A DNA stretch of 64,000 nucleotides, from assembly GCA_023244895.1 (NCBI GenBank), contig JAHFLL010000001.1, positions 178,476-242,475 of the forward strand. Reading direction: 5' to 3'. Origin of the DNA: Candidatus Liptonbacteria bacterium (lineage in GTDB: Bacteria > Patescibacteriota > Minisyncoccia > UBA6257 > 2-01-FULL-56-20). The notes beneath the pieces were generated by a model. It worked only from the letters and a program-made list of their open reading frames with translations, was not told where the DNA came from and searched no databases. Positions 19,473 through 58,568 of this stretch are shown piece after piece. Each line of letters opens with the position of its first letter. Position 1 is the stretch's first letter. The position numbers were made by a program, and so were the translations under genes.

Positions 19473-21185
19473 ATGTTTTCAGTTGTCAATCTGAAGGATA
19501 AGTTGGTTAGCTTACGGACCTTTCTGTTCTCGTCCAAGTTTTGGTTGCCAGGATTATTCCTGGTTTTAATCTTCTGCTACGCGTACCGGCCTCTCGCGGA
19601 GTCGGATAGCTTTTATCATCTAAAAGTAGGTGAGCTTATCTGGCAGACTGGAGAGATGCCGCATAGCGATGTTTTCTCTTATACCGCCTCTGGCTCTTTT
19701 TGGGTACCGCACGAATGGTTGGCAGAGCTTATTTTCTATGGGGTGTGGTCTGTTTCTGGATTCTGGGGCCTAATCGGTTTCTGCTCTCTGCTCGCCTCCA
19801 TCGCTTTCTTCCTTATCTATCGCATGATGCTAGAGAGGGGAGTGAATCATTATTTGGGCTCTCTACTCCTATTTGCCTTAGGATATTTTGCCCTGGAGCT
19901 TTGGGTTCCGCGCCCGCAAACATTCGCGTATCTATCTTTTGTCTTCTTAATCTATTGCTTGGAGCGGTATCGCGCGAAACGGGAGCTTAAATATCTATGC
20001 TTGGTCGTGGGCACTATTTGGTTTTGGGCCAACACCAACGCCAGTTTTATTTTAGGCATAGTGGTTTTAGGCTGGTATTTTATTTCTTCTTTTGTCTCGC
20101 GTCGTTACTCTTTAGAAGATAATCTGGGTAGCACGCCCCGTTCGCGGAATATATTTCTGGCGCTTGTCGCCTCTGTGGCGTTAAGCCTTTTGAACCCAAG
20201 CGGATATCATATTTGGCTTTATAGCTGGTATATAGCGCCAACCGTGAAAGCGCTAGACGTTTTCGAATGGCGTCCAATCTGGCGATATTTTTATGAATTT
20301 GAAACAAAAGTTTTCTTGGTGGAACTCGCGGTCTCCGCGGTTTTGCTCTTGTGGTATATGGGTTGGCGGAGAGGGAGCCGGGATTGGACCTTGCTTGGCT
20401 TGGTCTTTGGTATTTCTATCTTGCCCTTTTTATCCATTCGTCACGTCGGATTTTGGCCACTCGCCGCTATCTTGCCGCTTTCTATATCTATCTCAGGTTT
20501 GTTGTCCGGGATCATGGAGAGTGCAAATCAAAAAAAGATTGTCTTGGTTGTGGGGATTGTCGGGCTAGCTATGCTTGCCGGGCGGATCTTGGCTTGGCCT
20601 AAGCTCTATTTTGATCCAAATTATGTGCCATCTTTCGCGGCCGATTTCATAGAGCAAAACAACGTTAAAGGACCATTCTTTAATTTGTATAATGAGGGCG
20701 GATATTTAATTTGGCGGTTTTGGCCCAAGGAAAAAGTTTTTATAGATGGTCGTTCCGAGGTTTACACTCTGCCGGTTCTGGAGGAGTTGTCCGCCATATA
20801 TCATTCCAAGCCTGGTTCGGAAAAATTAATAGATGAGAAATATAAGATTAATTATTTCATCTTGTCTTATCGGGGAGCGTCGGAGCGTGTCGTGGGGCTG
20901 GTGCGTACGCTTATAAATAGGAACTGGCCGATGGTTTATTGGGATGATGCCGTTCTGGTTTTTATAAGACCCAGTGAGGAAAATATGCCGGTTATAAACA
21001 AGTATGCTATTCGCCACCTAAATCCCTTCCGTATGCCCGGCGACATACCCCAAGAGGAGTCAAAAGAGGCGGCCTTGGAGGCAAATCTCCTTTTAGAAAG
21101 AATTCCGCACTCCAGGGTGATAGAGGCGTACATCTGGGAGCTGCTTGGGTCTCGCAAGCCCCAAGAAGTTAAGCCGGGGCAGTAG
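19473..21185 (+). CDS. Polytopic membrane protein, possible GT-C-fold glycosyltransferase
   Basis: About 11 TM segments then a soluble C-terminal domain. ESDSFYH acidic motif in the first loop. Family unassigned. Confidence 0.4.
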   Translation: MFSVVNLKDKLVSLRTFLFSSKFWLPGLFLVLIFCYAYRPLAESDSFYHLKVGELIWQTGEMPHSDVFSYTASGSFWVPHEWLAELIFYGVWSVSGFWGLIGFCSLLASIAFFLIYRMMLERGVNHYLGSLLLFALGYFALELWVPRPQTFAYLSFVFLIYCLERYRAKRELKYLCLVVGTIWFWANTNASFILGIVVLGWYFISSFVSRRYSLEDNLGSTPRSRNIFLALVASVALSLLNPSGYHIWLYSWYIAPTVKALDVFEWRPIWRYFYEFETKVFLVELAVSAVLLLWYMGWRRGSRDWTLLGLVFGISILPFLSIRHVGFWPLAAILPLSISISGLLSGIMESANQKKIVLVVGIVGLAMLAGRILAWPKLYFDPNYVPSFAADFIEQNNVKGPFFNLYNEGGYLIWRFWPKEKVFIDGRSEVYTLPVLEELSAIYHSKPGSEKLIDEKYKINYFILSYRGASERVVGLVRTLINRNWPMVYWDDAVLVFIRPSEENMPVINKYAIRHLNPFRMPGDIPQEESKEAALEANLLLERIPHSRVIEAYIWELLGSRKPQEVKPGQ

Positions 21186-27954: not shown

Positions 27955-29412
27955 ATGTCTAATAAGTTTTATATAACTACTACTTTGCCGTATGTGAATG
28001 CGGCGCCTCATATTGGATTTGCCTTGGAAATAGTCCAGGCGGATGTTTTGGCCCGTTATGCCAGTTTGCGTGGCAGGGAGGTGGTTTTTAACACCGGTAC
28101 GGATGAGCATGGGCTAAAGATTTATCGCAAGGCCATAGAAGAAGGCAAAGACCCGCAGGCTTACGTGGATGAGTACGCCGCCAAATTTGAGCGTTTAAAA
28201 AATGCGCTAAACGTTAGCTATACTAATTTTGTCCGTACCACCGACCCGCACCACATAAAAGCAGCTCAAGATTTTTGGACCAGGTGTGAGAAGGCGGGGG
28301 ATATATATAAGAAGTTCTATAGCGTTAAATATTGCGTCGGCTGCGAGTTGGAAAAGACCGATTCCGAACTAGTGGAAGGCAGGTGCCCAGTCCATCCTAA
28401 TCTGGAGCTGGAGGCGATTGAAGAGGAAAACTATTTCTTCAGGTTCTCTAAGTATCAACAACCGCTTCTCCATTTATATTCCGAACATCCCGATTTTGTG
28501 GTGCCGGATTATCGTTTAACCGAAATAAAGAATTTTGTTTCCGGCGGACTGCAGGATTTCAGCATTTCCCGACTCAAAGAGAAAATGCCTTGGGGTATAC
28601 CCGTGCCGGGAGACGATAAGCACGTTATGTACGTTTGGTTTGATGCGCTCATAAATTACATTTCCACTCTGGGTTGGCCGGAGAATCAGAAAAAATTTGA
28701 AGAATTCTGGGGAACCGCGGGGCATCCGAATGCGCTCCAGATAGCCGGTAAAGATAATCTGCGCCAGCAGTCCGCCATTTGGCAGGCGATGTTGCTTTCG
28801 GCCGGAGTTCCGACTTCCCGTCAAGTATTGATTCACGGATTTATCACAAGCGAGGGAGAGAAGATGTCAAAGAGCCTAGGCAACGTCGTGGATCCGTTTG
28901 TTATCGTTGACAAATACGGCACGGACGCGCTGCGTTATTGGCTGACCCGGGAGATGCCGACTTTTAATGATGGCGATTTTACGATTGAAAGATTTGAAGA
29001 AAGTTACAACGCCAGTTTAGCGAACGGCCTGGGTAATTTGGTCAGTAGGATAATGAAGATGGCGAGCGCGAATGGAGTTGGGTTGGATTGGGAAAAAGCG
29101 GACGAGGGATTAAATTGGGAGACGGAGGGCTATGCGGAGTATCTGGAAACGGCTCAGATTCAGCAGGCTGCGGAGATAATTTGGCGGGAGGCGCGCAAGG
29201 CAGATCAGTATATTCAGGAGAAGGAGCCATTTAAGGTCATAAAGACCGACCCAGAAAAGGCTAAAAAGGACATCCTTATCCTACTCGGAGAATTATGGAC
29301 TATTGGCCGACTACTCGAACCATTTTTGCCCGAAACGAGTGCGCGCATTATAAACGCCATAAAGGATAATCATGAAATCAGCCAGCCGCTATTTCCCAGG
29401 ATTAGTAGCTAG
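27955..29412 (+). CDS. metG: Methionine--tRNA ligase (short form)
   Basis: [15 protein letters not shown]-type motif, KMSKSLGN, zinc knuckle CVGCELEK...CPVH. Confidence 0.9.
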
Positions 29413-29447: not shown

Positions 29448-31214
29448 ATGGGACCGGAGACTCGAAACTGTCAGAATTGCAAAAAAACTTTCACTATCGA
29501 GCCGGACGATTTTGGTTTCTACGAAAAAATGAAGGTTCCTCCGCCGACTTTCTGTCCGGGGTGTCGTCGACAGAGGCGTTTAGCTTGGCGCAATGAGATG
29601 ACTCTCTATTCCAGGCCCTGCGATTTTTGCGGCAAGAGTACTGTTTCGATATATTCTCCTGATTCTGGGCTAACGGTGTATTGTATTAAATGTTGGTGGT
29701 CAGATAACTGGGATCCGATGCGATATGGCCAGGAGTACGATTTCTCAAGACCGTTTTTCGAACAATTTAGAGAGTTGCAACAAAAAGTTCCTATTATAGC
29801 TCTAGCAAATGATGACGGTATAGCCGGGGGAAGCGTAAACTGTGCGTACAATCAGGATTTCGCTCGCGCAAAAGATTGCTATATGGTTTTCTCCGCATGG
29901 AAACTGCAAGATTCTATGTATAGTAATTATGTTCTGGACGGTAGAGGTATGGTGGATTGCATGGGCGTATGGGACGAGTGCGATTCTGTCTACGATGCTG
30001 TATATGCAGAAAGGTGCTATAGCTGCAGAAATGTTTATTATTCTGTAGCATTAACTAATTGCTCTTTCTGCTTAGATTGCAGAGACTCTTCCGATTGTTT
30101 TATGTGCACCGGCTTGAGACACAAGCGTTATTGTTTTAAGAATAAACAATATTCTAAAGAAGAGTACGAGACAATACTGCAATCTTATAAATTAGATACC
30201 TATAGTGGAGCCGAGCGAGCGAGAGAAGAGTTTAAAGAATTACTGTACGTAAAACCTCGTCGCTTCGCGAACCATCGCAACTCCGTCAACTCCACGGGGG
30301 AGTATTTGTCTAACTGCAAAAATGTCCATAACTGTTTTGTAATCCAGCGCGGTGAAGATTGTCGCTACATCGAATCCAGCGATACCCCAAAGGATTCCTA
30401 CGACCTAACTAATAGCGGAGAATTATCTCTAGGTTACGAAGGCGTAACCATAGACAACACCTATAACGGAGCCTTTGGTATTTTTGCCTGGAAGAACCAT
30501 GATTTCTACTATCTGGATGGATGTCATTCCTGCGAAAATCTGTTTGGTTGCGCCGGGCTTAAAAAAGCACGTTATTGTATTTTAAACAAACAATACACCG
30601 AAGAAGAGTATGGAAAGCTAGCCCCAAGAATAATCGAGCATATGAACAAGATGCCTTATGTTGATAAAAATGGCGTGGAGTATCGCTTCGGTGAGTTTTT
30701 CCCATCGGAATTGTCTTATTTCGGCTACAACGAAAGCGTCGCCCAGGATCATTTTCAGCTATCCCGCGAGGATGCCAAAAATAGACATTTCAATTGGAGA
30801 GAAAATTTGCCATTTACCACCAATAGGGAAACTATGTCCCTGAGTGATATGCCGGATTCTATAAAGGACATAGATGATTCTGTACTGGAGCAGGTGTTTG
30901 CTTGTGGAGAGTGTAAGAGAAATTATCGTCTTACGCCTCAGGAATTACAGTTCTATAGAAAATTCAATATTCCATTGCCCCGCCGTTGTTTTTTCTGTCG
31001 CAGACTACTTCGTTTAGAGATAAGGAATCCTCTTAAGCTGTATCATCGTACTTGCCAATGCGCTGGCCATAAAAGTTCCAATGGAATCTATCAGAATACC
31101 GTAGAGCACCAGCATGGCGATAAACCGTGCCCGAACGAATTTGAGACCTCTTATGCTCCCGACCGGCCGGAGATTGTTTACTGTGAAAGTTGTTACAATA
31201 GTGAAATTGTATGA
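29448..31214 (+). CDS. Cys-rich zinc-ribbon repeat protein (uncharacterised family), copy 1
   Basis: Terminal CxxC...CxxCRxQRR zinc-ribbon modules at both ends (N: CQNCKK...CPGCRRQRR; C: CGECKR...CFFCRRLLR). Two internal Cys-ladder repeats each ending RYC(F/I)(K/L)NKQY(S/T)(K/E)EEY. Confidence 0.65.
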   Translation: MGPETRNCQNCKKTFTIEPDDFGFYEKMKVPPPTFCPGCRRQRRLAWRNEMTLYSRPCDFCGKSTVSIYSPDSGLTVYCIKCWWSDNWDPMRYGQEYDFSRPFFEQFRELQQKVPIIALANDDGIAGGSVNCAYNQDFARAKDCYMVFSAWKLQDSMYSNYVLDGRGMVDCMGVWDECDSVYDAVYAERCYSCRNVYYSVALTNCSFCLDCRDSSDCFMCTGLRHKRYCFKNKQYSKEEYETILQSYKLDTYSGAERAREEFKELLYVKPRRFANHRNSVNSTGEYLSNCKNVHNCFVIQRGEDCRYIESSDTPKDSYDLTNSGELSLGYEGVTIDNTYNGAFGIFAWKNHDFYYLDGCHSCENLFGCAGLKKARYCILNKQYTEEEYGKLAPRIIEHMNKMPYVDKNGVEYRFGEFFPSELSYFGYNESVAQDHFQLSREDAKNRHFNWRENLPFTTNRETMSLSDMPDSIKDIDDSVLEQVFACGECKRNYRLTPQELQFYRKFNIPLPRRCFFCRRLLRLEIRNPLKLYHRTCQCAGHKSSNGIYQNTVEHQHGDKPCPNEFETSYAPDRPEIVYCESCYNSEIV

Positions 31215-32941
31215 TAGAGGCTCAAACTAAAGTTTGTCAGAATTGTAAGTCAGAGTTTGTTATTGAACCGGATGATTTTGGTTTTTACAAAAAGATAAAA
31301 GTGCCACCGCCGACCTGGTGTCCGGATTGCCGTCAGCAGAGGCGAATGACTTGGCGGAACGATTACAACTTTTTTATACGTAAATGCGATCTATGCGGAC
31401 AGAGAATCCTTTCGGTTTACTCTTCCGACAAGCCGATGCCGGTATATTGTCCCAAGTGCTGGTGGTCGGATAAATGGGATGCAAAAGAATTTAAAAAAGA
31501 CGTGGACGTCAACAAGCCTTTCTTCCCTCAGCTTAAAACCCTGCTCAATTCCGTGCCGGCTCTAGCTATTTTGAACGACGATGGCATAGCGAGCGTGAAT
31601 TGCCAATACTCCAACTATTTCGCTCTGGGTAAGAATTGCTATATGGTAATAAACTCATGGAAAGTGGAAGAGTGCATGTATTCGGTTTGTCTGGTGGGCG
31701 CAAAAAACACAGTGGACAGCGCAGTCATATTGGCAGGCGGGGAGCATCTGTATCATGCTATAAACGTAGATGCTTCTTCGCGTTGCCGATACGCGTTCAA
31801 CTCTGCGGGACTTTTGGATTGTCTCTACTGCTACGACTGCCGGAACTGTTCTGATTGTTTTATGTCTATCGGGCTGCGAGGCAGAAAATATTATTTTAAA
31901 AATAAACAGTATAGTAAAGAAGAGTACGAAAATATCGTTAAATCTTACTCTTTACAGACTTGGACCGGATCGGAACGTGCCCGCAAAGAGTTTGAAGAAT
32001 TTATTCTTCAATATCCGCGCAAGTGCGCCAATATTATAAACAGCGTAAATTGCAGCGGGGACTACCTGGTTAATTCAAAAAATGCCAAACACTGCTATAT
32101 AACCGTTCGAGTAGAGAACTCTAAATATTTTGAGAGGGGAGATACTATTCGTGATAGTTACGATTGTTTAAGCGGAGGAGAACAAGAATTGTGCTACGAA
32201 TCAATTAATCCGGACAATTCCTACGGCGCGCTATTTACCAGCTATTGCCATAAAGATAATGAGGTTTTGTATAGCGATAGTTGCCAATCGTCAGAACACC
32301 TTTTGGGTTGCGTGGGACTGAAAAGCTCCAAATATTGCATTCTGAATAAACAATATACGAAAGAAGAATATGAAAAAATAACCGCGCAACTAATAGAAAA
32401 GATGAAAGAGCGGGGCGAGTATGGAGAATTCATGCCGGCAAGTCTTTCGCCTTTTTGCTATAACGAGTCAGTTGCGCAAGATGAATATCCGCTTACTAAA
32501 GAGATGGTTATGTTTCGGGGATTGAGCTGGCAGGAGAGTTTTACGAAAACCGAAGGCAGGGAAGACGTGTCCGAAATACCGGACGACATAAATGAAGTTT
32601 CCGCGGATATTATTGATAAAACTTTAGCTTGTTTTGTCTGTAAGCGTAATTATCGCATCATAGAGGGCGAATTGAGATTCTATAGGCAGAATCAGGTTCC
32701 GGTTCCCCGCGTTTGTTTTTTCTGTAGATTCGCCAAGCTATATAAAGAGCGCGGTCCGGTTCATTTATGGAACCGCGTCTGTCAATGCTCTGGCCAGACC
32801 AGCTCTAACGGCGCATACGAAAACACCACTTCCCATGCCCATGGCGAGAATCCCTGCCTCGCGGGATTCGAGACTTCCTACGCCCCCGACCGACCCGAAA
32901 TCGTCTATTGTGAGGCTTGCTACAATTCCGAAATCGTATAG
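31211..32941 (+). CDS. Cys-rich zinc-ribbon repeat protein, tandem paralog (copy 2)
   Basis: Same architecture as copy 1. Starts with an ATGA overlap to the upstream stop (translational coupling). C-terminal ...ETSYAPDRPEIVYCE(S/A)CYNSEIV is identical in both. Confidence 0.65.
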   Translation: MIEAQTKVCQNCKSEFVIEPDDFGFYKKIKVPPPTWCPDCRQQRRMTWRNDYNFFIRKCDLCGQRILSVYSSDKPMPVYCPKCWWSDKWDAKEFKKDVDVNKPFFPQLKTLLNSVPALAILNDDGIASVNCQYSNYFALGKNCYMVINSWKVEECMYSVCLVGAKNTVDSAVILAGGEHLYHAINVDASSRCRYAFNSAGLLDCLYCYDCRNCSDCFMSIGLRGRKYYFKNKQYSKEEYENIVKSYSLQTWTGSERARKEFEEFILQYPRKCANIINSVNCSGDYLVNSKNAKHCYITVRVENSKYFERGDTIRDSYDCLSGGEQELCYESINPDNSYGALFTSYCHKDNEVLYSDSCQSSEHLLGCVGLKSSKYCILNKQYTKEEYEKITAQLIEKMKERGEYGEFMPASLSPFCYNESVAQDEYPLTKEMVMFRGLSWQESFTKTEGREDVSEIPDDINEVSADIIDKTLACFVCKRNYRIIEGELRFYRQNQVPVPRVCFFCRFAKLYKERGPVHLWNRVCQCSGQTSSNGAYENTTSHAHGENPCLAGFETSYAPDRPEIVYCEACYNSEIV

Positions 32942-32984: not shown

Positions 32985-33848
32985 ATGCCCTTCATCGACT
33001 GCCATACTCACGTCCAATTTGCCGCCTTTAAGGATGACCGCAAAGAGGTTGTTGCCCGCGCCCTGAGAGACGATATTTTTATGGTCAATGTGGGCACCCA
33101 ACAGGACACCTCTCAAAAGGCGGTAGAGCTGGCGCATGAATATGAAAGCGGACTTTATGCCGTAATCGGCTTACATCCCATACATACTGGTAAGTCCTAT
33201 CACGACGATCAGGAGTTGGGAGGAGGCGAGGCCGCGGTTGGGTTTACCAGCCGAGGAGAGGTTTTTGATTACGGATATTATAAAAAGTTAGCTCTGGATC
33301 CTAAAACCGTGGGCATTGGCGAGTGCGGTTTGGATTATTATCATGGAACAGGGAACATGGAGCATGGAACATTGGGGGTGGAAGAGAAAAATAAGCAAGA
33401 AGAAGTTTTCAGGCGTCAGATTGAGCTGGCAAACGAAACCGGCAGGGCCTTGATGGTCCACTCCAGAGATGCCTTTTCGGACACCTTACGGATACTTAAA
33501 TCTGCTGGAGCGCATGATGGAATTGCGCATTCTTTCGTGAGAACCATAGACGAAGCGAAAGAGCTTCTGGACTTGGGGTTCTATTTCACATTCGCGGGAA
33601 ATATCACCTTTAAGCCCAAGGCAGATAAGATTTCCGCGGACGAAGTTATTAAGTATATTCCAGCAGACAGATTGCTTAGCGAAACAGATGCCCCCTACCT
33701 TGCGCCGGTTCCATTCAGGGGCAGGCGGAATGAGCCGCTATATGTAGTCGAAGTGGTCAAAAAGCTGGCAGACCTGAAGGGTCTATCGGTAGGGGAGATG
33801 AAGGAGCAAATCTGGCAAAACGCGCAGAGAGTGTTTAAAATAAGCTAA
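32985..33848 (+). CDS. tatD: TatD-family metal-dependent hydrolase (DNase)
   Basis: FIDCHTHV N-terminal motif, GECGLDYY, HSRDA. Confidence 0.8.
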   Translation: MPFIDCHTHVQFAAFKDDRKEVVARALRDDIFMVNVGTQQDTSQKAVELAHEYESGLYAVIGLHPIHTGKSYHDDQELGGGEAAVGFTSRGEVFDYGYYKKLALDPKTVGIGECGLDYYHGTGNMEHGTLGVEEKNKQEEVFRRQIELANETGRALMVHSRDAFSDTLRILKSAGAHDGIAHSFVRTIDEAKELLDLGFYFTFAGNITFKPKADKISADEVIKYIPADRLLSETDAPYLAPVPFRGRRNEPLYVVEVVKKLADLKGLSVGEMKEQIWQNAQRVFKIS

Positions 33849-35109: not shown

Positions 35110-38100
35110 ATGAAAAAATACGACTTTAAAAAAATTGAAGCCAAGTGGCAGAAGGTCTGGCAGGAGAAGGGTGTTTACGAACCTGCCTTAAAGTCCTCCA
35201 AGGGCAAAAATCCTCCCTTCTATAACTTGATGATGTTTCCGTATCCTTCCGCGGAGGGTCTGCATGTAGGCAATATGTATGCCTTCACGGGTACGGATAT
35301 CTACGGACGTTATAAGCGTATGCAGGGCAACGATGTTTTTGAGCCGATTGGCCTAGACGGCTTCGGAATTCACTCCGAGAACTATGCCATGAAAATCGGG
35401 GCTCACCCCATGAAGCAGGCTAAAGTATCGGAGAAAAGGTTCTATAAGCAGCTGCAGGCAATAGGAAACGGGTTTGCCTGGAACGAGCGCCTGGAAACAT
35501 ATGATCCGGAATATTACCGCTGGACGCAGTGGATTTTCGCGCAGATGTTTAAGGCGGGGTTGGCTTATCGCAAGAAGCAGGCTGTGAACTGGTGTCCATC
35601 CTGCATGACGGTTTTGTCCGACGAGCAGGCCGAGGGCGGAAAGTGCGAACGTTGCAACTCGGTAGTTATTAAAAAAGATTTAGAGCAGTGGTTTTTTAAA
35701 ATTACGGAATACGCGGAAAGACTTTTGCAGAATCTGGACAAGTTGGATTGGTCCGAAAAGGTAAAAATAGCGCAGAAGAATTGGATAGGGAAGTCGGAGG
35801 GGGCGGAGCTGGAATTTGGAATTAAGAATTATGAATTAGGAATCAAAAATGCCCTGGTTATTCATGGTGTGAGTGGGCATAAGAGGGAAAATTGGTTTCC
35901 GTGGCTGAAAGATATTTTAGAGAAAGACGGTTGGCATGTTAGCGTGCCCACTCTACCGACCCCCGATCATCCCAAAATAGAAGAATGGAATATGGTCCTA
36001 AAGAAAGAGTCTACATCCGCCTCTGTTTTAATCGGCCACAGTTTGGGAGCTCCAGCCGCTTTAAACCTTATTCAGACCAGCAATAAAAAGATAGACAGAT
36101 TAATCTTGGTAGCTCCGGTCAATCCTAAACAGGATTGGAGATATTTAAAGTCGGTCTATCCTCAAGCTGATTGGGATGCGGTCAAAAACTTCGCGGATAT
36201 TAAGTTCGATTGGGAAAAAATTACAAAATTAGTCAGACAGGTTGTGGTCTATTATTCCGACAATGACCCATATGTTTCTGCTAAATCGGTGGAGTTCTAT
36301 AAGCAGCATCTACCGAACGCTATTTTTAGGTTCTTGCCCGGCAAGGGCCATTTTAATGAGCGTTATGGGATAACCGAATTTCCGGAAATCCTGGAAGCGG
36401 TTAACCCCAAGGTAAAAGTTTTTACAACCAGGCCGGATACGCTTTTTGGCGCGACTTATGTCGTCTTGGCGCCGGAACACCCATTGATACAGAATCTAGA
36501 AGGTGGAATTAAGAATGTAGTAGAAGTTAAGAACTATATTAAGAAATCTAAGGCTAAGACTGATGAGGAGAGAATAGAGAACAAAGAGAAAACTGGCGTA
36601 GAACTAAGGGGCGTTAAAGCTATAAATCCTGCGACCCAAGGAGAGATATCCATTTGGGTAGCAGATTATGTTTTGTCTTCCTACGGCACAGGTGCAATTA
36701 TGGCCGTCCCGGCACACGATGAGCGCGACCACGAGTTTGCTAGCAAGTACAAACTTCCAATCGTAGAGGTGGTTGATTCTCAAGATAACTCCGACGGCAC
36801 CCTTTGGCTTGGAGGAGGACGCTTAATAAATTCTGGAAGATTTAACGGAGTGGATTCAGAAGAGGCCAAGTGGAAAATAACGGCAGAGGTTGGTGGCAAG
36901 AAAAAGATACAATATCGTCTGCGAGACTGGCTGATTTCGCGTCAGCGCTATTGGGGTCCGCCCATCCCGATGATTCATTGCGAAGGTTGCGAAAAAGCCG
37001 GGAAGGGGGAGCGCAAAGAAATGCCGGGCTGGTACGCGGTGCCCGACAAAGACCTGCCGGTGAAGCTGCCGTTCGTAAAAGATTTTCGTCCGCAAGGCTC
37101 TGGCAGTTCGCCACTCGCGGCATCTAAGGCATTCCGCGATGTGCGCTGTCCGGTCTGTAAAAATAAAGCCAAGCGGGAGACAGACGTTTCGGACACTTTT
37201 TTGGACTCGGCCTGGTACTATTTGCGCTATCCATCCTTAAGCTCCAAGACTGCCAAGGCTAAAGCCTGGGACCCGGAGATAACCAAGAGCTGGTGTCCGG
37301 TTGATATGTATATCGGCGGGGCGGAGCACTCCGTGTTGCACCTGCTATACGTACGCTTTTTGGCCCTAGCCTTACACGACCTGAAACTAGTCAATTTTGG
37401 AGACTCTAAGGCCCCTAAAGGCGAGCCATTCCCCAAATTCCGCGCCCACGGCCTTCTTATTAAGGAGGGAGCTAAAATGTCCAAGTCTAAGGGGAATGTG
37501 GTCAATCCGGACGAATATATCAAGAATTTTGGAGCGGACACCCTGCGCATGTATTTGATGTTTTTAGCTCCCTTTGAACAGGGTGGAGACTTCCGGGACG
37601 CGGGCGTTATGGGTATCAGCCGCTTTTTGGAGAGGGTGTATAAATTTAGTCAAAGAATTAGCGACCCGAATACTACAAATTACATCCGAATTATCCGAAA
37701 AGAGAGAAAGAATTCGGAGCATTCGGATGTATTCGTGGATTTGGATCGCATACTGCATCAGACCATTAAGAAGGTTTCGGATGATCTGGAGAGTTTGAGC
37801 TACAACACGGCCATAAGCGCCATGATGATATTGCTAAATAAGTTCGAGGAAAAGGCAGAGTCAGTCTCGCTACCAAATTGGATAGACTTCTTGAAACTGC
37901 TTGCTCCATTTGCTCCACATCTTTCCGAGGAACTGTTCCAGTCAGCCAAAAAACATAATTCTCAATTCATAATTCGTAATTCAATCCATCTATCCGATTG
38001 GCCCCAATATAACCCAGAGCTTGCCCGGGAATCCAATTTTACTTTGATAGTTCAAATTAACGGCAAGGTGCGTGCGAGCATTGAGGCTCCGATTGGGATA

Positions 38101-38217
38101 TCAGAGAAGAACGCTCTGGCGCTTGCCCTCCGAAATGAGCGCGTGAAAGAACTTGTGTCCGGCGATCCGAAGAGGGTGATATTTATTCCTAATCGTCTGA
38201 TTAACCTGGTAATCTAA
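35110..38217 (+). CDS. leuS: Leucine--tRNA ligase carrying two insertions (alpha/beta-hydrolase domain; in-frame palindromic repeat)
   Basis: HVGNMYAFTGTDIY (HIGH-type), TTRPDTLFGATYVVLAPEHP and AVPAHDERD editing-domain motifs, KMSKSKGN. About 1035 aa versus about 800-860 typical. Confidence 0.9.
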   Translation: MKKYDFKKIEAKWQKVWQEKGVYEPALKSSKGKNPPFYNLMMFPYPSAEGLHVGNMYAFTGTDIYGRYKRMQGNDVFEPIGLDGFGIHSENYAMKIGAHPMKQAKVSEKRFYKQLQAIGNGFAWNERLETYDPEYYRWTQWIFAQMFKAGLAYRKKQAVNWCPSCMTVLSDEQAEGGKCERCNSVVIKKDLEQWFFKITEYAERLLQNLDKLDWSEKVKIAQKNWIGKSEGAELEFGIKNYELGIKNALVIHGVSGHKRENWFPWLKDILEKDGWHVSVPTLPTPDHPKIEEWNMVLKKESTSASVLIGHSLGAPAALNLIQTSNKKIDRLILVAPVNPKQDWRYLKSVYPQADWDAVKNFADIKFDWEKITKLVRQVVVYYSDNDPYVSAKSVEFYKQHLPNAIFRFLPGKGHFNERYGITEFPEILEAVNPKVKVFTTRPDTLFGATYVVLAPEHPLIQNLEGGIKNVVEVKNYIKKSKAKTDEERIENKEKTGVELRGVKAINPATQGEISIWVADYVLSSYGTGAIMAVPAHDERDHEFASKYKLPIVEVVDSQDNSDGTLWLGGGRLINSGRFNGVDSEEAKWKITAEVGGKKKIQYRLRDWLISRQRYWGPPIPMIHCEGCEKAGKGERKEMPGWYAVPDKDLPVKLPFVKDFRPQGSGSSPLAASKAFRDVRCPVCKNKAKRETDVSDTFLDSAWYYLRYPSLSSKTAKAKAWDPEITKSWCPVDMYIGGAEHSVLHLLYVRFLALALHDLKLVNFGDSKAPKGEPFPKFRAHGLLIKEGAKMSKSKGNVVNPDEYIKNFGADTLRMYLMFLAPFEQGGDFRDAGVMGISRFLERVYKFSQRISDPNTTNYIRIIRKERKNSEHSDVFVDLDRILHQTIKKVSDDLESLSYNTAISAMMILLNKFEEKAESVSLPNWIDFLKLLAPFAPHLSEELFQSAKKHNSQFIIRNSIHLSDWPQYNPELARESNFTLIVQINGKVRASIEAPIGISEKNALALALRNERVKELVSGDPKRVIFIPNRLINLVI
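35818..36414 (+). other. Inserted YdeN/RBBP9-type serine hydrolase domain within leuS (residues about 237-435)
   Basis: LVIHGVSGHKRENWFPW...LIGHSLGAPAAL (GxSxG nucleophile elbow)...YYSDNDPYV...GKGHFN (Asp/His). Inserted between the conserved ...SEGAELEF and VKVFTTRPDT LeuS blocks, which are normally only a few residues apart. Confidence 0.65.
37660..37751. repeat. MITE-like palindromic element (ORF-less derivative of the 1773-2223 element) inserted in-frame in leuS
   Basis: agcgacccgaat...catccgaat...attcggagcattcggatgtattcgtggatttggatcgc matches both ends of the 1773-2223 element. Translated as SDPNTTNYIRIIRKERKNSEHSDVFVD in the LeuS frame. Confidence 0.6.
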
Positions 38218-40028: not shown

Positions 40029-40118
40029 TGGCGGAGGGTACAGGATTTGAACCTGTGAGGGGATCTCTCCCCAACCGCATTTCGAGTGCGGCGCACTAGA
40101 CCACTATGCGAACCCTCC
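40029..40118 (-). tRNA. tRNA-Ser (anticodon CGA)
   Basis: Cloverleaf with long variable arm. Anticodon loop cuCGAaa. CCA encoded. Confidence 0.85.
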
Positions 40119-40233
40119 TTCTGATAGTTCAAATATTAGCCCATAGATTAGGAGCGGGCAAGGCGTTTACAGGCTTAGGCCAGCATGTATAATAATCCCG
40201 ACGAAGCCCTGGCATTGGTCGGGGCGCAATAAA

Positions 40234-40305
40234 GCCCTCGTAGTTCAACGGATAGAACGGCTCACTCCTAACGAGTCGATCGAGGTTCAATTCCTCGCGA
40301 GGGCA
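40234..40305 (+). tRNA. tRNA-Arg (anticodon CCT)
   Basis: gccctcg/cgagggc acceptor, T-arm cgagg-ttcaatt-cctcg, anticodon loop cuCCUaa. Anticodon stem is weak. Confidence 0.6.
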
Positions 40306-40368
40306 CAACGCAAAACTTTGATTTTTCTGCGGAATAGGGTAGAATCGTAATCGTTATTTTGAATTTCG

Positions 40369-40439
40369 GGGCCTATAGTAAAATGGTATTACGCCTCCAT
40401 GGCATGGAGGAGGTCGGGGTCCGATTCCCCGTGGGTCCA
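40369..40439 (+). tRNA. tRNA-Ala (anticodon GGC)
   Basis: G3:U70 pair, anticodon stem cctcc/ggagg, loop auGGCau. Confidence 0.7.
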
Positions 40440-44047: not shown

Positions 44048-47000
44048 CTAGCGTACGAAGTTCCTACCCGGCTTAGCGCGGAGAGTGTCTGGTTCTTTCT
44101 CTTCCGAACGCAAGGCATAGATTATCTTCTCGTAGGGAGTAAGAATTGGTCCGGCCAGCTTAATCACATGGAACTTGAAGGCTGCGAAATAGAACGCTAC
44201 CGAAACCAAAAGTCCCAAACTTAGGACCCACGGGACCGGATTATCCGGACCAGTTACGATATCGGCCGCGCCTAAGACCTGCCCGCGATTCTTTATTTGA
44301 ATGGTCGCGTAAGCATTCTGTACGCCTGAGTTCATTGTAGCATTTACCTGATTGGTAATAAACTTCTGGGCGGAACCCGCGAATATTACCGCGCGGAAAC
44401 GGATAATCTTTTCTTCGTTAACATTTAGCATGCCCAAAGAAAGTCCGCCGCCGGTTATGCCATCCGTCACATTAATGCCGTTCACGCTGGTGCTCTGGGG
44501 CACATAGTAGAGTTCTTGGGGCAGAATATCTTGCACGTTAACCGAGCCGGAAGTGTTGTCTATGTTGCGCACCCTAATTTCAAACTCCAGAACATCTAAG
44601 CCTTGTCCTTCGATGGAGTTGGAGTAGGTGGATTGATTTAGATTGCGATTTAAGACGGACTTAGTAACTTGTAAGTTGCGCGCCGTGCCTCCGCCGTAGT
44701 TATTAACCGTGATGGTCTCGGTATCGGTTGCCTGTCCATATTGATTAGTACAGGTGATGGTGTAAGTAGTAGTGAAGGTCGGATAAACTATTGAAGATCC
44801 ATTCAAGTTTTGATTACCGCTCCAGTTATTTCCGCCAGCTGTGGCGTAACAGGTCGTCGCGTTCTGGGAGTTCCAATAGAGAGTGCTCTGTTGACCGCTG
44901 TTTACGTTAGTAGGGGAGGCGGTCAAGTTTACGGTTGGCAGATTGTAGTTATCATTTACGAAAACCGTGGTCTGCGCGCTAACATTCTGTCCGTTCTGCC
45001 CGGTGCAATTAATGTAGTAGGTTGTGGTCTGGTTGGGGTAGACGGTCTCGCCACCGGAAACATTTTTATTACCGGACCAATATCCGCCGCTCGCGTAACA
45101 AGAGGTGGTATTCTGGCTCGTCCAATTTAAAACGCTGGACTGTCCACGGCTGACTACGCTTGGGTTGGAAGTTAGTGTTACCGAAGGATAGTTACCGTTA
45201 TTACCCACCGTAACCGTGGTCTGCGCGACTGCGCTCTGCCCGGTGCCGTTGTAGCAAGTTATGGAATAAGTGGTGGTGCTGCCCGGGTAAACGACTTCAG
45301 AGCCGGATAGATTTTTATTACCGGACCAGCCGCTAGAGGCGATACAGTAAGTCGCGTTTTGAGAGCTCCAGGTTAAAACCGAAGATTGCCCCTGGTTGAT
45401 GTAGCTAGGGTTGGAATTTATGGTTACGGTAGGAGCTTGAACTTGCTGAACATTTATAACCACGCTGTCGCTCGCATAACCTGCCGCACCCGTACAGGAA
45501 ACAAAATAGGTAGCATTGTAGCTCAGATTCGGCGTAGTCTGACTGCCGCTCGTGCCCGTCCAACCGCCCGGGGACACATTACAAGAAGTGGCGCCAGCAG
45601 AGGTCCAAGAAATAACAGCAGTGGAATTATTGGGAATTGTTATCGGTCCATCCGAACCATTCGCCTTAATGTCGGCTGTAATCTGGGGAGGATTACCAAC
45701 CGTAACCGTGACGCTATCCTGAGCGCTACCTCCGCTTTGCCCAATACAATATACAGAATAAGTTTGCTGGTAAGTTAAGTTTCCGCTGGACTGCGAACCG
45801 CTTGTGCCCGTCCAGCCGCTCGGGGATACGCTACAAGAAGCAGCGTTAGTAGAAGTCCAAGAAATAGTAGCAGAGGTGTTGTAGGGTATGTTTAGAGTAC
45901 TATCTTGTCCATTCGCCTTGATGTCTGCGGTAACAGTAGCTCCCGCTCCCACATTCACAGTTACCGAATCAGAAGCGGAACCACCCGCTCCGCTACAGTT
46001 AACAGTATAAGTTTGAGTAGCGGTTAAGTTTCCGCTGGACTGCGAACCGCTTGTGCCCGTCCAGCCGCCCGGAGTGACCGTGCAAGAGGTAGCATTAGAA
46101 GAAGTCCAAGAAATGGTAGCCGCAGTGTTATTGGGAATTGTGATCGGTCCATCCGAGCCATTCGCCTTAATGTCGGCGGAGATGGTCTGATTAATGCCGC
46201 AATTTTGCGCGTTGACTAATACGGTCACATCATTGGATGCGACTTGGGCATGATTCTTCTGACGATAAGTGTAGTAAGTGTCGCCCAAAGAAACATTAGT
46301 GTCGGTGTAGCTAAAAACATTAAAAGGTTCCGAATCCTGCATTATGACGCTAAAGTTACCCCCACCCACTTTTCTTAAGAGGGTGTTGGCTTGCTGGTTA
46401 GCTACCTGGTTCCAAGAGAGATTGACGCGGGGCGCTCCGTTTATGTTGGAGCAGTATCCGGTCAGGTTGCTGGGCGGGGGTAGCGTAACCGCCCCCACAT
46501 TCACAGTTACCGAATCAGATGCGGAACCGCCTGCTCCGCTACAGTTAACAGTATAAGTTTGGGTAGCGGTTAAGTTTCCGCTGGACTGCGAACCACTTGT
46601 GCCCGTCCAGCCGCCCGGAGTGACCGTGCAAGAGGTAGCGTTAGAAGAAGTCCAAGAAATGGTAGCCGCAGTGTTATTGGGAATTGTGATCGGTCCATCC
46701 GAACCATTCGCCTTGATGTCAGCGGAGATGGTGGGAGGGGGGATGATTACGTTGTCGCCATATATTTTAAGAACAGCCAAGCCGTGGACCGGGCCGATTG
46801 GATTGCCAGTTTCATCCACCGCATTTTCGGCAGTTACCACCAAATAGAATCCGTTACCGGCCGAGAAGTTGCTAACGTTTATATTTCTCGTGTCATTCTT
46901 AATACTGGGAGGATTAACACCTACAAAATAAACCTGGTTATTATTGATAGTTACCTGCCCGCCATCGTCCAGTTCGCTTTCTAAAACCGCGCGGGTAATA

Positions 47001-47221
47001 GTGGTATTGCTTGGCACGGTACAATATGCCTGAGCGGTTACAGTTAGGCCACCCCCGACAGACTGAGTTTCGGCCGTGCAGGTTACGAGCAGGCTCTCCG
47101 CGCTAGCTTGATTTGTAATAGAAAATGCCGAAACCAGCGCCAAAGAAAAAATAGCGCCGAAGATTAAGGTTTTGTTGATAAAGTTAGTATTCATTAGTTT
47201 TGTTAATAGATTAAGGCACAT
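44048..47221 (-). CDS. Giant cell-surface protein: about 5 Ig-like repeats (NATSC...PGGWTGTSGSQ), DUF11-like domain, C-terminal TM anchor
   Basis: 1057 aa. Signal/TM at the N-terminus. Three nearly identical about 85-aa repeats. DUF11-like LEFEIRVRNIDNTSGSVNVQDILP. C-terminal IVTGPDNPVPW plus TM plus charged tail. First gene of the adhesin-CAP-sortase operon. Confidence 0.75.
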   Translation of the reverse strand: MCLNLLTKLMNTNFINKTLIFGAIFSLALVSAFSITNQASAESLLVTCTAETQSVGGGLTVTAQAYCTVPSNTTITRAVLESELDDGGQVTINNNQVYFVGVNPPSIKNDTRNINVSNFSAGNGFYLVVTAENAVDETGNPIGPVHGLAVLKIYGDNVIIPPPTISADIKANGSDGPITIPNNTAATISWTSSNATSCTVTPGGWTGTSGSQSSGNLTATQTYTVNCSGAGGSASDSVTVNVGAVTLPPPSNLTGYCSNINGAPRVNLSWNQVANQQANTLLRKVGGGNFSVIMQDSEPFNVFSYTDTNVSLGDTYYTYRQKNHAQVASNDVTVLVNAQNCGINQTISADIKANGSDGPITIPNNTAATISWTSSNATSCTVTPGGWTGTSGSQSSGNLTATQTYTVNCSGAGGSASDSVTVNVGAGATVTADIKANGQDSTLNIPYNTSATISWTSTNAASCSVSPSGWTGTSGSQSSGNLTYQQTYSVYCIGQSGGSAQDSVTVTVGNPPQITADIKANGSDGPITIPNNSTAVISWTSAGATSCNVSPGGWTGTSGSQTTPNLSYNATYFVSCTGAAGYASDSVVINVQQVQAPTVTINSNPSYINQGQSSVLTWSSQNATYCIASSGWSGNKNLSGSEVVYPGSTTTYSITCYNGTGQSAVAQTTVTVGNNGNYPSVTLTSNPSVVSRGQSSVLNWTSQNTTSCYASGGYWSGNKNVSGGETVYPNQTTTYYINCTGQNGQNVSAQTTVFVNDNYNLPTVNLTASPTNVNSGQQSTLYWNSQNATTCYATAGGNNWSGNQNLNGSSIVYPTFTTTYTITCTNQYGQATDTETITVNNYGGGTARNLQVTKSVLNRNLNQSTYSNSIEGQGLDVLEFEIRVRNIDNTSGSVNVQDILPQELYYVPQSTSVNGINVTDGITGGGLSLGMLNVNEEKIIRFRAVIFAGSAQKFITNQVNATMNSGVQNAYATIQIKNRGQVLGAADIVTGPDNPVPWVLSLGLLVSVAFYFAAFKFHVIKLAGPILTPYEKIIYALRSEEKEPDTLRAKPGRNFVR

Positions 47222-52970: not shown

Positions 52971-53046
52971 GGGCCGTTAGCTCAATTGGTAGAGCGCGTC
53001 ATTTGCAATGACGAGGCAACCGGTTCGAATCCGGTACGGTCCACCA
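52971..53046 (+). tRNA. tRNA-Ala (anticodon TGC), CCA encoded
   Basis: gggccgt/acggtcc acceptor with G3:U70. Anticodon stem cgtca/tgacg, loop uuUGCaa. T-loop ttcgaat. Confidence 0.75.
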
Positions 53047-55085: not shown

Positions 55086-55175
55086 GGAGGGTTGGCAGAG
55101 TGGTCTAACGCGCCGCACTTGAAATGCGGTTGAGGGGAAACCCTCTCGCAGGTTCGAATCCTGCACCCTCCGCCA
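55086..55175 (+). tRNA. tRNA-Ser (anticodon TGA), CCA encoded
   Basis: Long variable arm. Anticodon loop cuUGAaa. T-loop ttcgaat. Confidence 0.85.
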
Positions 55176-58495: not shown

Positions 58496-58568
58496 GCCAC
58501 CTTAGCTCAGTTGGTAGAGCAATGCTTTCGTAAAGCAGAGGTCCGGGGTTCGACTCCCCGAGGTGGCT
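58496..58568 (+). tRNA. tRNA-Thr (anticodon CGT)
   Basis: gccacct/aggtggc acceptor. Anticodon loop uuCGUaa. T-arm cgggg-ttcgact-ccccg. Confidence 0.8.

What the first reader, a model, noticed from the sequence alone, without database searches (positions are those of the whole stretch)
29448..32941. Tandem pair of internally duplicated Cys-rich zinc-ribbon proteins occupying the conserved metG-tatD junction
Two adjacent paralogs (588 and 576 aa, start overlapping stop by ATGA) each contain four parts. (a) An N-terminal double CxxC ribbon with a CxxCRxQRRxxWRN signature. (b) Two internal repeats with Cys ladders and NCxxCxxCxxSSDCFMC-type motifs, each ending RYCxxNKQY(S/T)(K/E)EEY. (c) A second CxxC...CFFCR ribbon. 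(d) A conserved C-terminal ...ETSYAPDRPEIVYCExCYNSEIV. In many bacteria metG is directly followed by tatD; here this gene pair is wedged between them, marking it as an accessory insertion. The family is not one I can assign. It may be a metal-binding or nucleic-acid-binding module, or a structural Cys-knot protein.
Basis: partly seen in the sequence, partly recalled or inferred. Interest (0 to 1): 0.75.

Follow-up and report, generated by a model that had tools for sequence, protein, structure and literature searches.

The report
Uncharacterised CPR zinc-finger/Cys-ladder protein arrays
The two genes are real members of a very large, unnamed protein family found only in tiny-genome CPR (Patescibacteria) bacteria: soluble proteins with zinc fingers at both ends and a duplicated cysteine-ladder repeat core, which elsewhere form tandem arrays of up to ten or more old paralogs, often beside 'orphan' VirD4/TraD-like ATPases whose role is an open question.

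Summary
Two co-directional ORFs (29448-31214, 588 aa; 31211-32941, 576 aa) overlap by ATGA, are 49% identical and lie between metG and tatD. Profile comparison proves the internal duplication and extends it. The layout is ZnF-a/ZnF-b, module M1, module M2, conserved linker, ZnF-a'/ZnF-b'. The fingers match PF13451 and the CxxC-x17-CxxC finger PF23477; the ~380-aa core matches no Pfam, NCBIfam, PADLOC or PDB entry. Each module is about nine 12-residue repeats with Cys every third residue. AlphaFold models it at moderate confidence, and only weak beta-solenoid matches result. The family is huge (2,005 clusters at 50% identity, E<=1e-30), its named records are all from Patescibacteria, it is soluble and it is under strong purifying selection. 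It is not tied to metG-tatD. In 83 related loci it forms tightly packed same-strand arrays of 1 to 10 or more ancient paralogs. The only strongly recurrent neighbour is a soluble VirD4/TraD-like ATPase (23-25 loci, about 13-22x enriched), often carrying the same zinc finger. Function is unknown. My best guess (about 0.3) is specificity or adaptor subunits for those ATPases. The 'accessory insertion' reading holds only locally.

The parts
29448..31214 (+). p1, 588-aa family member (subfamily 'B'), 36 Cys
   Evidence: ORF. Identical to P0001, with more than 6,800 homologues. AF2 pTM 0.86.
29448..29603 (+). p1 ZnF-a (res 1-52): C8/C11/C36/C39 with a basic helix CRRQRRLAWRN; PF13451-type treble-clef finger; pI 9.2
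   Evidence: These Cys are 98-99% conserved in 223 members. PF13451 hits 29 of 80 family members, best E 8.5e-8. pLDDT about 90.
29604..29747 (+). p1 ZnF-b (res 53-100): C58-x2-C61-x17-C79-x2-C82, followed by WWSDxWD
   Evidence: Exact CxxC-x17-CxxC spacing. PF23477 and TIGR04272 hits are sub-threshold. 35 of 80 members hit PF23477. The Cys are intact in about 63% of the family and in 44 of 45 of subfamily B.
29748..30197 (+). p1 module M1 (res 101-250): about nine 12-residue repeats x(K/E)(N/D)(C/S)x(Y/F), period-3 Cys ladder, ends YCFKNKQYSKEEY plus a helix
   Evidence: hhalign M1~M2 E 1e-20. Cys autocorrelation 0.63 at lag 3. 12-mer layout. pLDDT 55-70.
30198..30647 (+). p1 module M2 (res 251-400): homologous repeat module, ends YCILNKQYTEEEY plus a helix
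   Evidence: AF2 strands are spaced about 12 residues apart; pLDDT 66-87.
30648..30887 (+). p1 conserved acidic linker (res 401-480), motif GEFFPxELSxFGYNESxAQ..F.L
   Evidence: pLDDT 92-95. Conservation and pI 4.7. No Pfam match.
30888..31037 (+). p1 ZnF-a' (res 481-530): C486/C489/C514/C517, basic (pI 10.2)
   Evidence: Homologous to ZnF-a, E 2e-13. Cys 88-96% conserved.
31038..31214 (+). p1 ZnF-b' (res 531-588): C536(/C538)/C561/C579/C582, with an inserted His-containing loop; C-terminal ...CYNSEIV and the stop codon
   Evidence: Homologous to ZnF-b, E 8e-9. Cys 91-97% conserved.
31211..32941 (+). p2, 576-aa paralog (49% identical to p1), same seven-part layout: fingers res 1-100, M1+M2 101-399, linker 400-468, fingers 469-576
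   Evidence: AF2 pTM 0.84. Orthologues at 72-77% identity in L035, L019, L022 and L053.
27955..29412 (+). metG (upstream flank, 35-nt gap)
   Evidence: PF09334 E 9e-101.
32985..33848 (+). tatD-family hydrolase (downstream flank, 43-nt gap)
   Evidence: PF01026 E 3.5e-72.

Best explanation
p1 and p2 are two members of an uncharacterised family restricted to CPR/Patescibacteria. Members are soluble, roughly 580-aa zinc proteins. Shown here: (1) a pair of Cys4 fingers at each end (a basic PF13451-type finger plus a CxxC-x17-CxxC finger); (2) a duplicated core of 12-residue repeats lined with Cys every third residue, modelled at moderate confidence as a tight beta-solenoid-like coil; (3) ancient paralogs under purifying selection, encoded in tightly packed same-strand arrays; (4) frequent flanking of those arrays by soluble VirD4/TraD-like P-loop ATPases, many with the same CxxC-x17-CxxC finger, and sometimes also by a TM-anchored partner protein and by CutA1. 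Inferred mechanism: the proteins act as interchangeable specificity or adaptor subunits for that ATPase. The conserved basic fingers at both ends would dock onto a common partner (nucleic acid and/or the ATPase), and the paralog-specific repeat core would recognise a different ligand or cargo in each paralog. In this window only a two-gene version is present, probably co-transcribed with metG and tatD, and no ATPase lies within the 64 kb.
For: Architecture and duplication. Zinc: Cys4 sites are 88-99% conserved, and the CxxC-x17-CxxC domain binds Zn experimentally in M. mazei small proteins (PMC12704099). Soluble. Real genes under constraint: pooled pN 0.107 vs pS 0.724. Arrays: 252 family ORFs in 84 sources, all on one strand, 1 to 10 or more per locus; median intergenic gap 4 nt, 58 of 131 junctions overlap. 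Ancient subfunctionalised paralogs: median 39% identity within a locus, 191 of 192 have their nearest relative in another genome; the core is the slowest part between orthologues but the most divergent between paralogs. ATPase link: it is the top neighbour cluster, 41 genes in 25 of 82 loci, 40 co-directional; the HMM finds 33 in 23 loci, mostly within 300 nt, and 17 carry the finger (PF23477 3e-12; TIGR04272 1.4e-16). Enrichment is 13-22x over the published ~2 T4CP per Patescibacteria genome. Arrays are larger when the ATPase is present (Fisher p 0.005). Published work notes that most Patescibacteria T4CPs are far from virB4 and may be exapted (PMC12102498).
Confidence: 0.3

Rival explanations
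1. The proteins are cargo, not adaptors. They would be a repertoire of substrates recruited by the VirD4/TraD-like coupling ATPases and exported, for example through the Patescibacteria T4SS, to the host cell.
For: Coupling proteins are often encoded next to their substrates. The family has no Sec signal. The C-terminal ~190 aa is conserved. The Patescibacteria T4SS lacks relaxases and has no known substrates. A TM-anchored partner lies next to the ATPase in 7 loci and is fused to it in L040.
Against: No VirB4 or other T4SS parts were found near the arrays. There is no toxin or enzyme domain. There are four structural Zn sites and a structured C-terminus, not a flexible charged signal. Purifying selection is strong and there is no diversifying signal. 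The adjacent ATPases themselves lack a membrane anchor.
Confidence: 0.15
2. The proteins are stand-alone nucleic-acid-binding regulators (transcription, RNA or translation factors). Each paralog would have its own target, independent of the ATPase.
For: The treble-clef fingers are basic (pI 9.2 and 10.2) with Arg-rich helices. The window pair is embedded among translation genes (metG, leuS). Paralog-specific cores are conserved. Most loci lack the ATPase.
Against: The most conserved parts are the fingers and the most paralog-specific part is the acidic core, which is the reverse of typical sequence-specific zinc-finger factors. The neighbourhood of housekeeping genes is non-specific in such small genomes.
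Confidence: 0.2
3. The proteins are structural or cytoskeletal. The solenoid-like proteins would polymerise head to tail through the homologous N- and C-terminal finger pairs, with paralogs co-assembling (analogous to bactofilins).
For: Length and architecture are uniform. The two ends are homologous. Co-expressed arrays suggest balanced stoichiometry. The arrays are a large genomic investment, 35% of the fetched locus DNA. MreB, FtsW and ScpAB are neighbours in some loci.
Against: There is no similarity to bactofilin or any other polymer-forming family. Many loci have a single copy. The neighbours look like clade-specific synteny.
Confidence: 0.1
4. The proteins handle metal or redox chemistry. 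The period-3 Cys ladder of the core would bind additional metal ions or Fe-S clusters beyond the four Zn sites, for storage, buffering or electron transfer.
For: The median is 34 Cys per protein, 18 of them in the core. CxxCxxCxxC (C211/214/217/220) is 74-96% conserved. The strict period-3 pattern places up to four Cys per 12-residue repeat. CutA1 genes are embedded in arrays in about 9 loci. The modest AF2 confidence in the core could reflect a missing cofactor.
Against: Apart from one segment, the core Cys positions are individually poorly conserved (20-60%) and are often replaced by Ser, as expected for small residues packing a narrow coil. p1 and p2 themselves differ in which positions are Cys. 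There is no ferredoxin or Fe-S Pfam hit.
Confidence: 0.1
5. The arrays are an anti-phage or conflict system, with a HerA/VirD4-like ATPase and diversified sensor proteins.
For: The partner ATPase gives weak PADLOC hits to mad8 (1e-14) and HerA models. Multi-paralog arrays are common in conflict systems.
Against: The family has no PADLOC hit. There is no nuclease or other effector domain. The paralogs are ancient and under purifying selection, with no rapid turnover. The arrays sit among core housekeeping genes. The family is absent from 50,697 phage genomes.
Confidence: 0.05

Closest known systems
Pfam PF13451 (zf_Tbcl, 'probable treble clef domain')
   Same: ZnF-a and ZnF-a' have two CxxC pairs about 24 residues apart, with F-Y-x-K...P-x-P-x-x-C-P-x-C-R and a basic helix. 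29 of 80 family members hit the model, best E 8.5e-8; p2 hits at E 4.6e-4. A phage 'zinc-ribbon domain protein' is the best BFVD match.
   Different: PF13451 is itself a domain of unknown function and covers only about 45 of 588 residues. p1 and p2 score below the gathering threshold.
CxxC-x17-CxxC domain (Pfam PF23477 zf_Tbcl_2 / NCBIfam TIGR04272)
   Same: The spacing is exact in ZnF-b (C58-C61-x17-C79-C82). 35 of 80 members hit the model. The same domain occurs in the neighbouring ATPases at E 1e-12 to 1e-16. Zn binding was shown by ICP-MS for M. mazei small proteins (PMC12704099).
   Different: The characterised examples are stand-alone small archaeal proteins. Here the domain is one of seven parts, it has lost its Cys in about 37% of paralogs, and ZnF-b' carries a ~22-residue insertion.
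Cys-containing beta-solenoid antifreeze proteins (Tenebrio TmAFP 1ezg, 12-residue coils; spruce budworm CfAFP 1m8n) and left-handed beta-helix (hexapeptide) proteins
   Different: The matches are weak and non-significant (Foldseek E >= 0.29; profile vs TmAFP E = 2). There is no Thr ice-binding ladder, no hexapeptide motif and no signal peptide, so the protein is cytoplasmic and disulfides are unlikely. The Cys period is 3, not 6.
Type IV coupling proteins (VirD4/TraD/TrwB) and their substrate or adaptor partners
   Same: The recurrent neighbour has TrwB_AAD_bind, TraG-D_C, T4SS-DNA_transf and DUF87 domains. T4CPs are typically encoded beside what they recruit. Orphan T4CPs are abundant in Patescibacteria (PMC12102498).
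   Different: The neighbouring ATPases lack the N-terminal membrane anchor, fall below all curated TraD/VirD4 cut-offs and are not near virB4. The family resembles no known relaxase, effector or adaptor. The window itself has no such ATPase.

Membership tests
PF13451 zf_Tbcl | Two CxxC pairs forming a Cys4 site | tested here: met
   C8/C11/C36/C39 and C486/C489/C514/C517 are present in p1, with equivalents in p2. They are 88-99% conserved in 223 members.
PF13451 zf_Tbcl | Score at or above the Pfam gathering threshold (24 bits) | tested here: inconclusive
   p2 scores 20.5 bits (E 4.6e-4). p1 gives no hit at E <= 1. 29 of 80 diverse family members hit at E <= 0.1, best 8.5e-8.
PF23477 / TIGR04272 CxxC-x17-CxxC | CxxC, 17 residues, CxxC | tested here: met
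   p1 has C58, C61, C79, C82; p2 has C59, C62, C80, C83.
PF23477 / TIGR04272 CxxC-x17-CxxC | Score at or above the curated cut-off (27 / 36 bits) | tested here: not met
   p1 scores 14.2 bits (PF23477) and 12.5 bits (TIGR04272). At family level, 35 of 80 members hit at E <= 0.1, best 5.5e-6.
PF23477 / TIGR04272 CxxC-x17-CxxC | Binds zinc | not testable with these tools
   Shown only for M. mazei small proteins by ICP-MS (PMC12704099).
Left-handed beta-helix / hexapeptide-repeat proteins | Hexapeptide motif [LIV]-[GAED]-x2-[STAV]-x with 18-residue coils, and a Pfam Hexapep hit | tested here: not met
Insect antifreeze beta-helix (TmAFP type) | 12-residue TCTxSxxCxxAx coils, disulfide-bonded and secreted | tested here: not met
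   A 12-residue period is present, but the motif is x(K/E)(N/D)(C/S)x(Y/F). The profile scores E = 2 vs 1ezg. There is no signal peptide.
Ferredoxin-type 4Fe-4S proteins | CxxCxxCxxxCP motif and a Fer4 Pfam hit | tested here: not met
   The family consensus is CxxCxxCxxC (positions 211-220), and p1 has Ser at 214. No Fer4 hit.
Bactofilin (PF04519) | Sequence or structure match to the bactofilin beta-helix | tested here: not met
Known anti-phage defence proteins (PADLOC-DB) | Match to a defence-system model | tested here: not met
   0 families for p1 and p2 at E <= 1.
T4CP-associated substrate or adaptor (functional class, not a sequence family) | Encoded adjacent to a VirD4/TraD-like ATPase | tested here: inconclusive
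   Met for the family in 23-25 of 82 loci. Not met in this window, which has no ATPase hit in 64 kb.
T4CP-associated substrate or adaptor (functional class, not a sequence family) | Physical interaction with, or translocation by, the ATPase | not testable with these tools
   This needs AF-Multimer or biochemistry.

The most novel reading that the evidence does not exclude
The family and the orphan VirD4/TraD-like ATPases (with a TM-anchored partner and CutA1 in some loci) would together form a previously unrecognised CPR-specific machine. A hexameric translocase would use a panel of interchangeable zinc-finger/Cys-ladder solenoid subunits, each recognising a different macromolecular cargo (DNA, RNA or protein). 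This would explain what most Patescibacteria T4CPs do away from the T4SS. A bolder sub-reading is that the 12-residue coils, with up to four inward-facing Cys each, coordinate a stack of metal ions, which would be a new metalloprotein fold.
Probability: 0.2. Interest if true: 0.85.

Novelty: categorically new. Interest (0 to 1): 0.66.

Why it matters
CPR/Patescibacteria have genomes under 1 Mb and little room for redundancy. Even so, many carry 2 to 10 or more diverged copies of this 1.75-kb gene side by side, and the family makes up 35% of the DNA in the 83 loci fetched. The copies are all under purifying selection. A family this abundant and this conserved, yet absent from every curated library, probably supports something central to the biology of these organisms. 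Its link to VirD4/TraD-like ATPases gives a concrete, testable handle on a published puzzle: about 5,700 such ATPases occur in Patescibacteria, almost all are away from virB4, no relaxases or substrates are known, and the authors suspect exaptation. The duplicated core, with its strict period-3 cysteine pattern in 12-residue repeats, has no significant counterpart in the PDB. It may be a new fold or a new metal site.

Tried and rejected
- **BLASTP self-comparison of p1 and p2** found no internal repeats. A profile comparison was needed.
- **Curated libraries:** Pfam, NCBIfam, PADLOC and PHROGs on p1 and p2 gave only sub-threshold finger hits and a marginal unannotated PHROG 15341 (E 1.4e-3).
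- **PDB by sequence and by profile:** nothing significant.
- **afdb50 fold library** was unavailable, so AlphaFold-DB neighbours were not examined.
- **Phage genomes:** tblastn found no match.
- **Promoter and terminator scan:** counts were at shuffle level, so it was uninformative.
- **Rfam:** only tRNAs in the window.
- **Conserved subfamily order along arrays:** only loose patterns, so a fixed multi-subunit operon is rejected.
- **Diversifying selection in the core:** rejected, because the core evolves slowest between orthologues.
- **'Always between metG and tatD':** rejected.
- **Other recurrent neighbours** (FtsW, MreB, ScpA/B, MurG, GltX, peptidases, ComEC, MFS, kinases) were judged to be housekeeping synteny.
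- **Literature:** seven searches found no description of the family.
- **Pfam tally on 126 sequences** exceeded the residue limit and was repeated on 80.


Full report
**1. Observation**

The window holds two same-strand ORFs at exactly the stated coordinates: 29448..31214 (588 aa) and 31211..32941 (576 aa). The stop of the first and the start of the second share ATGA. The proteins are 49% identical over their full length (285/585, E 0.0). They contain 36 and 37 cysteines.

Upstream is metG (27955..29412, PF09334, E 9e-101). Downstream is a TatD-family hydrolase (32985..33848, PF01026, E 3.5e-72).

BLASTP self-comparison does not detect the internal repeats. hhalign on sub-alignments of 55 homologues (alignment A1) proves them. 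Residues 105-246 align with 260-394 at probability 99.3, E 1e-20. The same test shows that the N-terminal finger pair is duplicated at the C-terminus: 3-49 vs 481-527 at E 2e-13, and 53-83 vs 531-583 at E 8e-9.

The layout is therefore ZnF-a, ZnF-b, module M1, module M2, a conserved linker, ZnF-a', ZnF-b'.

**2. What the parts are**

*Fingers.* ZnF-a and ZnF-a' are PF13451-type (zf_Tbcl) fingers, and ZnF-b is a CxxC-x17-CxxC finger (PF23477/TIGR04272). The window proteins score below the curated thresholds. Among 80 diverse relatives, 29 hit PF13451 (best E 8.5e-8) and 35 hit PF23477 (best 5.5e-6). No family recurs on the core or the linker.

Across 223 full-length relatives the finger cysteines are conserved as follows:

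| Finger | Cys conservation |
|---|---|
| ZnF-a | 98-99% |
| ZnF-a' | 88-96% |
| ZnF-b' | 91-97% |
| ZnF-b | intact in about 63% |

ZnF-b is intact in 44 of 45 members of the subfamily containing p1 and p2. The two 'a' fingers are basic (pI 9.2 and 10.2), and everything else is acidic. The CxxC-x17-CxxC domain has been shown by ICP-MS to bind zinc in Methanosarcina mazei small proteins (PMC12704099).

*Core.* Each module is about nine repeats of a 12-residue unit, x-(K/E)-(N/D)-(C/S)-x-(Y/F). Cysteine frequency has a strict period of 3. Autocorrelation is 0.63 at lag 3, positive at every multiple of 3 and negative elsewhere. The best conserved stretch is CxxCxxCxxC at positions 211-220 (74-96%).

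*Models.* AlphaFold2 gives compact models: p1 pTM 0.86 and pLDDT 82.7; p2 pTM 0.84 and pLDDT 82.8. Fingers and linker are at 90 or above. The modules are only at 55-87, with strands or beta-bridges spaced about 12 (or 6) residues apart.

*Fold searches.*
- Foldseek against PDB finds nothing significant (best E 0.29).
- BFVD matches only zinc ribbons.
- Sequence and profile searches of PDB find nothing.
- The afdb50 library was unavailable.

The core is best described as a tight, Cys-lined, solenoid-like repeat with no significant known relative. That fold assignment is tentative.

**3. The family**

The word-indexed search returned at least 6,816 homologues. All those that carry a name are 'hypothetical protein' from Patescibacteria. 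An exhaustive HMM search of 1.84 billion cluster representatives found 4,708 at E <= 1e-3, 3,470 at E <= 1e-10 and 2,005 at E <= 1e-30. The top 150 all have the same single architecture, and all but a few (430-530 aa, some lacking the N-terminal part of the profile) are 540-612 aa.

A scan of one genome per species confirmed at least 582 loci. Their record titles name Nomura-, Sungii-, Lipton-, Giovannoni-, Jorgensen-, Staskawicz- and Uhrbacteria, Paceibacterota/Minisyncoccia and generic Patescibacteria labels.

The proteins have no TM or signal-like segment. Nine orthologue pairs give pooled pN 0.107 against saturated pS 0.724, so dN/dS is about 0.05.

**4. Context**

The family is not tied to metG-tatD. 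Of 83 other loci, only L055 has both genes. There they overlap directly, and the family gene lies 5.4 kb away. So the junction really is split in this genome, but the placement is local.

Elsewhere the family forms arrays:
- 252 family ORFs in 84 sources, every one on the same strand as the seed, with 1 to 10 or more copies per roughly 17-kb locus.
- Median gap of 4 nt between adjacent copies; 58 of 131 junctions overlap.
- Paralogs within a locus are old (median 39% identity, maximum 58%). For 191 of 192 the closest relative is in another genome.
- Subfamily order is only loosely conserved.
- The core modules are the most divergent part between paralogs but the slowest-evolving part between orthologues.

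That pattern indicates long-standing specialisation. It does not fit an arms race.

**5. Partners**

I clustered all 721 non-family genes in the loci. The top cluster, by a wide margin, is a VirD4/TraD/TrwB/HerA-like P-loop ATPase group: 41 genes in 25 of 82 loci, 40 of them co-directional. An HMM finds 33 ATPases in 23 loci, mostly within 300 nt of a family gene, and 17 carry a CxxC-x17-CxxC finger. Domain support comes from PF10412/PF12696/PF02534/PF01935 and PF23477 at 3e-12, and from TIGR04272 at 1.4e-16.

These ATPases lack a membrane anchor. They fall below every curated TraD/VirD4 cut-off.

Arrays are often bracketed by a short form (about 490 aa) and a long form that has the finger and a low-complexity tail. 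In 7 loci a protein of 417-496 aa with an N-terminal TM segment precedes the short ATPase, and in L040 it is fused to the ATPase. CutA1 sits inside arrays in about 9 loci. All other recurrent neighbours are housekeeping genes, and no VirB4 or other T4SS parts were seen.

A 2025 survey found 5,713 VirD4-like T4CPs in 2,918 Patescibacteria genomes, only 148 of them near virB4, and suggested exaptation (PMC12102498). Against that background, 33 ATPases in 768 kb of flanking DNA is a 13-22-fold excess. That figure is rough, because the loci are not independent and the detection criteria differ. Arrays are larger where the ATPase is present (16 of 22 vs 21 of 59 with three or more copies, p 0.005).

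The 64-kb window contains neither the ATPase nor CutA1. Its pair lies among housekeeping genes: peptidase M16, an AI-2E transporter, metG, tatD, a nucleotidyltransferase and leuS. No terminator separates the pair from its neighbours, but promoter and terminator counts are at chance level.

**6. Mechanism**

What is shown: zinc-finger ends, a duplicated Cys-ladder repeat core, solubility, purifying selection, arrays of ancient paralogs, and enrichment next to finger-bearing VirD4/TraD-like ATPases.

What is inferred (confidence about 0.3): the proteins are interchangeable specificity or adaptor subunits for that ATPase. Their conserved basic ends would dock on a common partner (nucleic acid and/or the ATPase), and their paralog-specific cores would bind distinct ligands.

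Rivals:

| Rival | Confidence |
|---|---|
| Independent nucleic-acid-binding regulators | 0.2 |
| Exported cargo of the coupling ATPases | 0.15 |
| A heteropolymeric scaffold | 0.1 |
| Metal or Fe-S handling through the Cys ladder | 0.1 |
| Defence system | 0.05 |

None can be excluded with the present data.

**7. Comparison and novelty**

Only the fingers belong to known domain families, and those families have no known function. The core and the linker, about 65% of the protein, match nothing curated. No paper describes the family. The resemblance to beta-solenoid antifreeze and left-handed beta-helix proteins is weak, and the defining features of those families are not met.

I rate it as not assignable to any known kind (categorically new as a family and gene arrangement), with the function unknown. 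Interest is 0.66. The finding is not exotic at the level of this one window. It does expose a very abundant, conserved and unstudied CPR family, and it offers a testable link to the orphan coupling ATPases.

Noticed in passing
window 35110-38217 (+): The leucyl-tRNA synthetase (1035 aa) carries an inserted PF06821 Ser_hydrolase (RBBP9/YdeN-type alpha/beta hydrolase, E 8e-20) at residues 249-429, immediately before the CP1 editing domain (PF13603, residues 432-593). This is an unusual domain insertion in an aminoacyl-tRNA synthetase.
   Followed up: no
L059:3067-4380, L054:4257-5678, L066:4466-5812, L051:4439-5929; fusion at L040:10439-13168: A protein of 417-496 aa with an N-terminal TM-like segment and no Pfam match sits just upstream of the short VirD4/TraD-like ATPase in 7 loci. 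In L040 it is fused to the ATPase (Walker A at residue 515). This suggests a split coupling-protein-like unit.
   Followed up: partly
L059:9661-9969, L051:15348-15656, L056:2318-2623, L062:2175-2480, L065:9758-10183, L066:11285-11593, L008 (CutA101): CutA1 (PF03091, E 6e-30) genes are embedded inside or beside the arrays in about 9 loci. A possible link to metal handling is unexplained.
   Followed up: partly
L035:1644-3404 vs L053:9731-11422; L050:5211-6953 vs L083:1180-2949: Synonymous divergence is mosaic. pS is 0.12-0.23 over residues 1-400 but 0.81-0.83 over residues 401-588 (0.47-0.58 vs 0.77-0.83 in the second pair). This points to a recombination or gene-conversion breakpoint at the M2/linker boundary.
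   Followed up: no
family-wide (subfamilies D, G, K): Whole subfamilies have lost the ZnF-b cysteines. Subfamily G, which often comes first in arrays next to the short ATPase, retains only ZnF-a. 53 of 223 members lack only ZnF-b.
   Followed up: partly
window 7-1773, 4042-5793, 6046-8106, 19473-21185 (+) and 44048-47221 (-): Five large ORFs (570-1057 aa) have no Pfam match at E <= 1e-3 to 1e-4. Despite its identical length (588 aa), the ORF at 7-1773 is not a family member.
   Followed up: no
window 29835-30416 (p1 res 130-323 region); PHROG 15341: Both p1 and p2 give marginal hits (E 5e-3 and 1.4e-3) to phage family phrog_15341, which has no known function, over the M1/M2 region. No phage genome in INPHARED encodes a detectable homologue.
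   Followed up: partly
window 40032-40439, 52971-53043, 55086-55172, 58496-58568: Six tRNA genes, three of them clustered at 40.0-40.4 kb. This looks ordinary.
   Followed up: no
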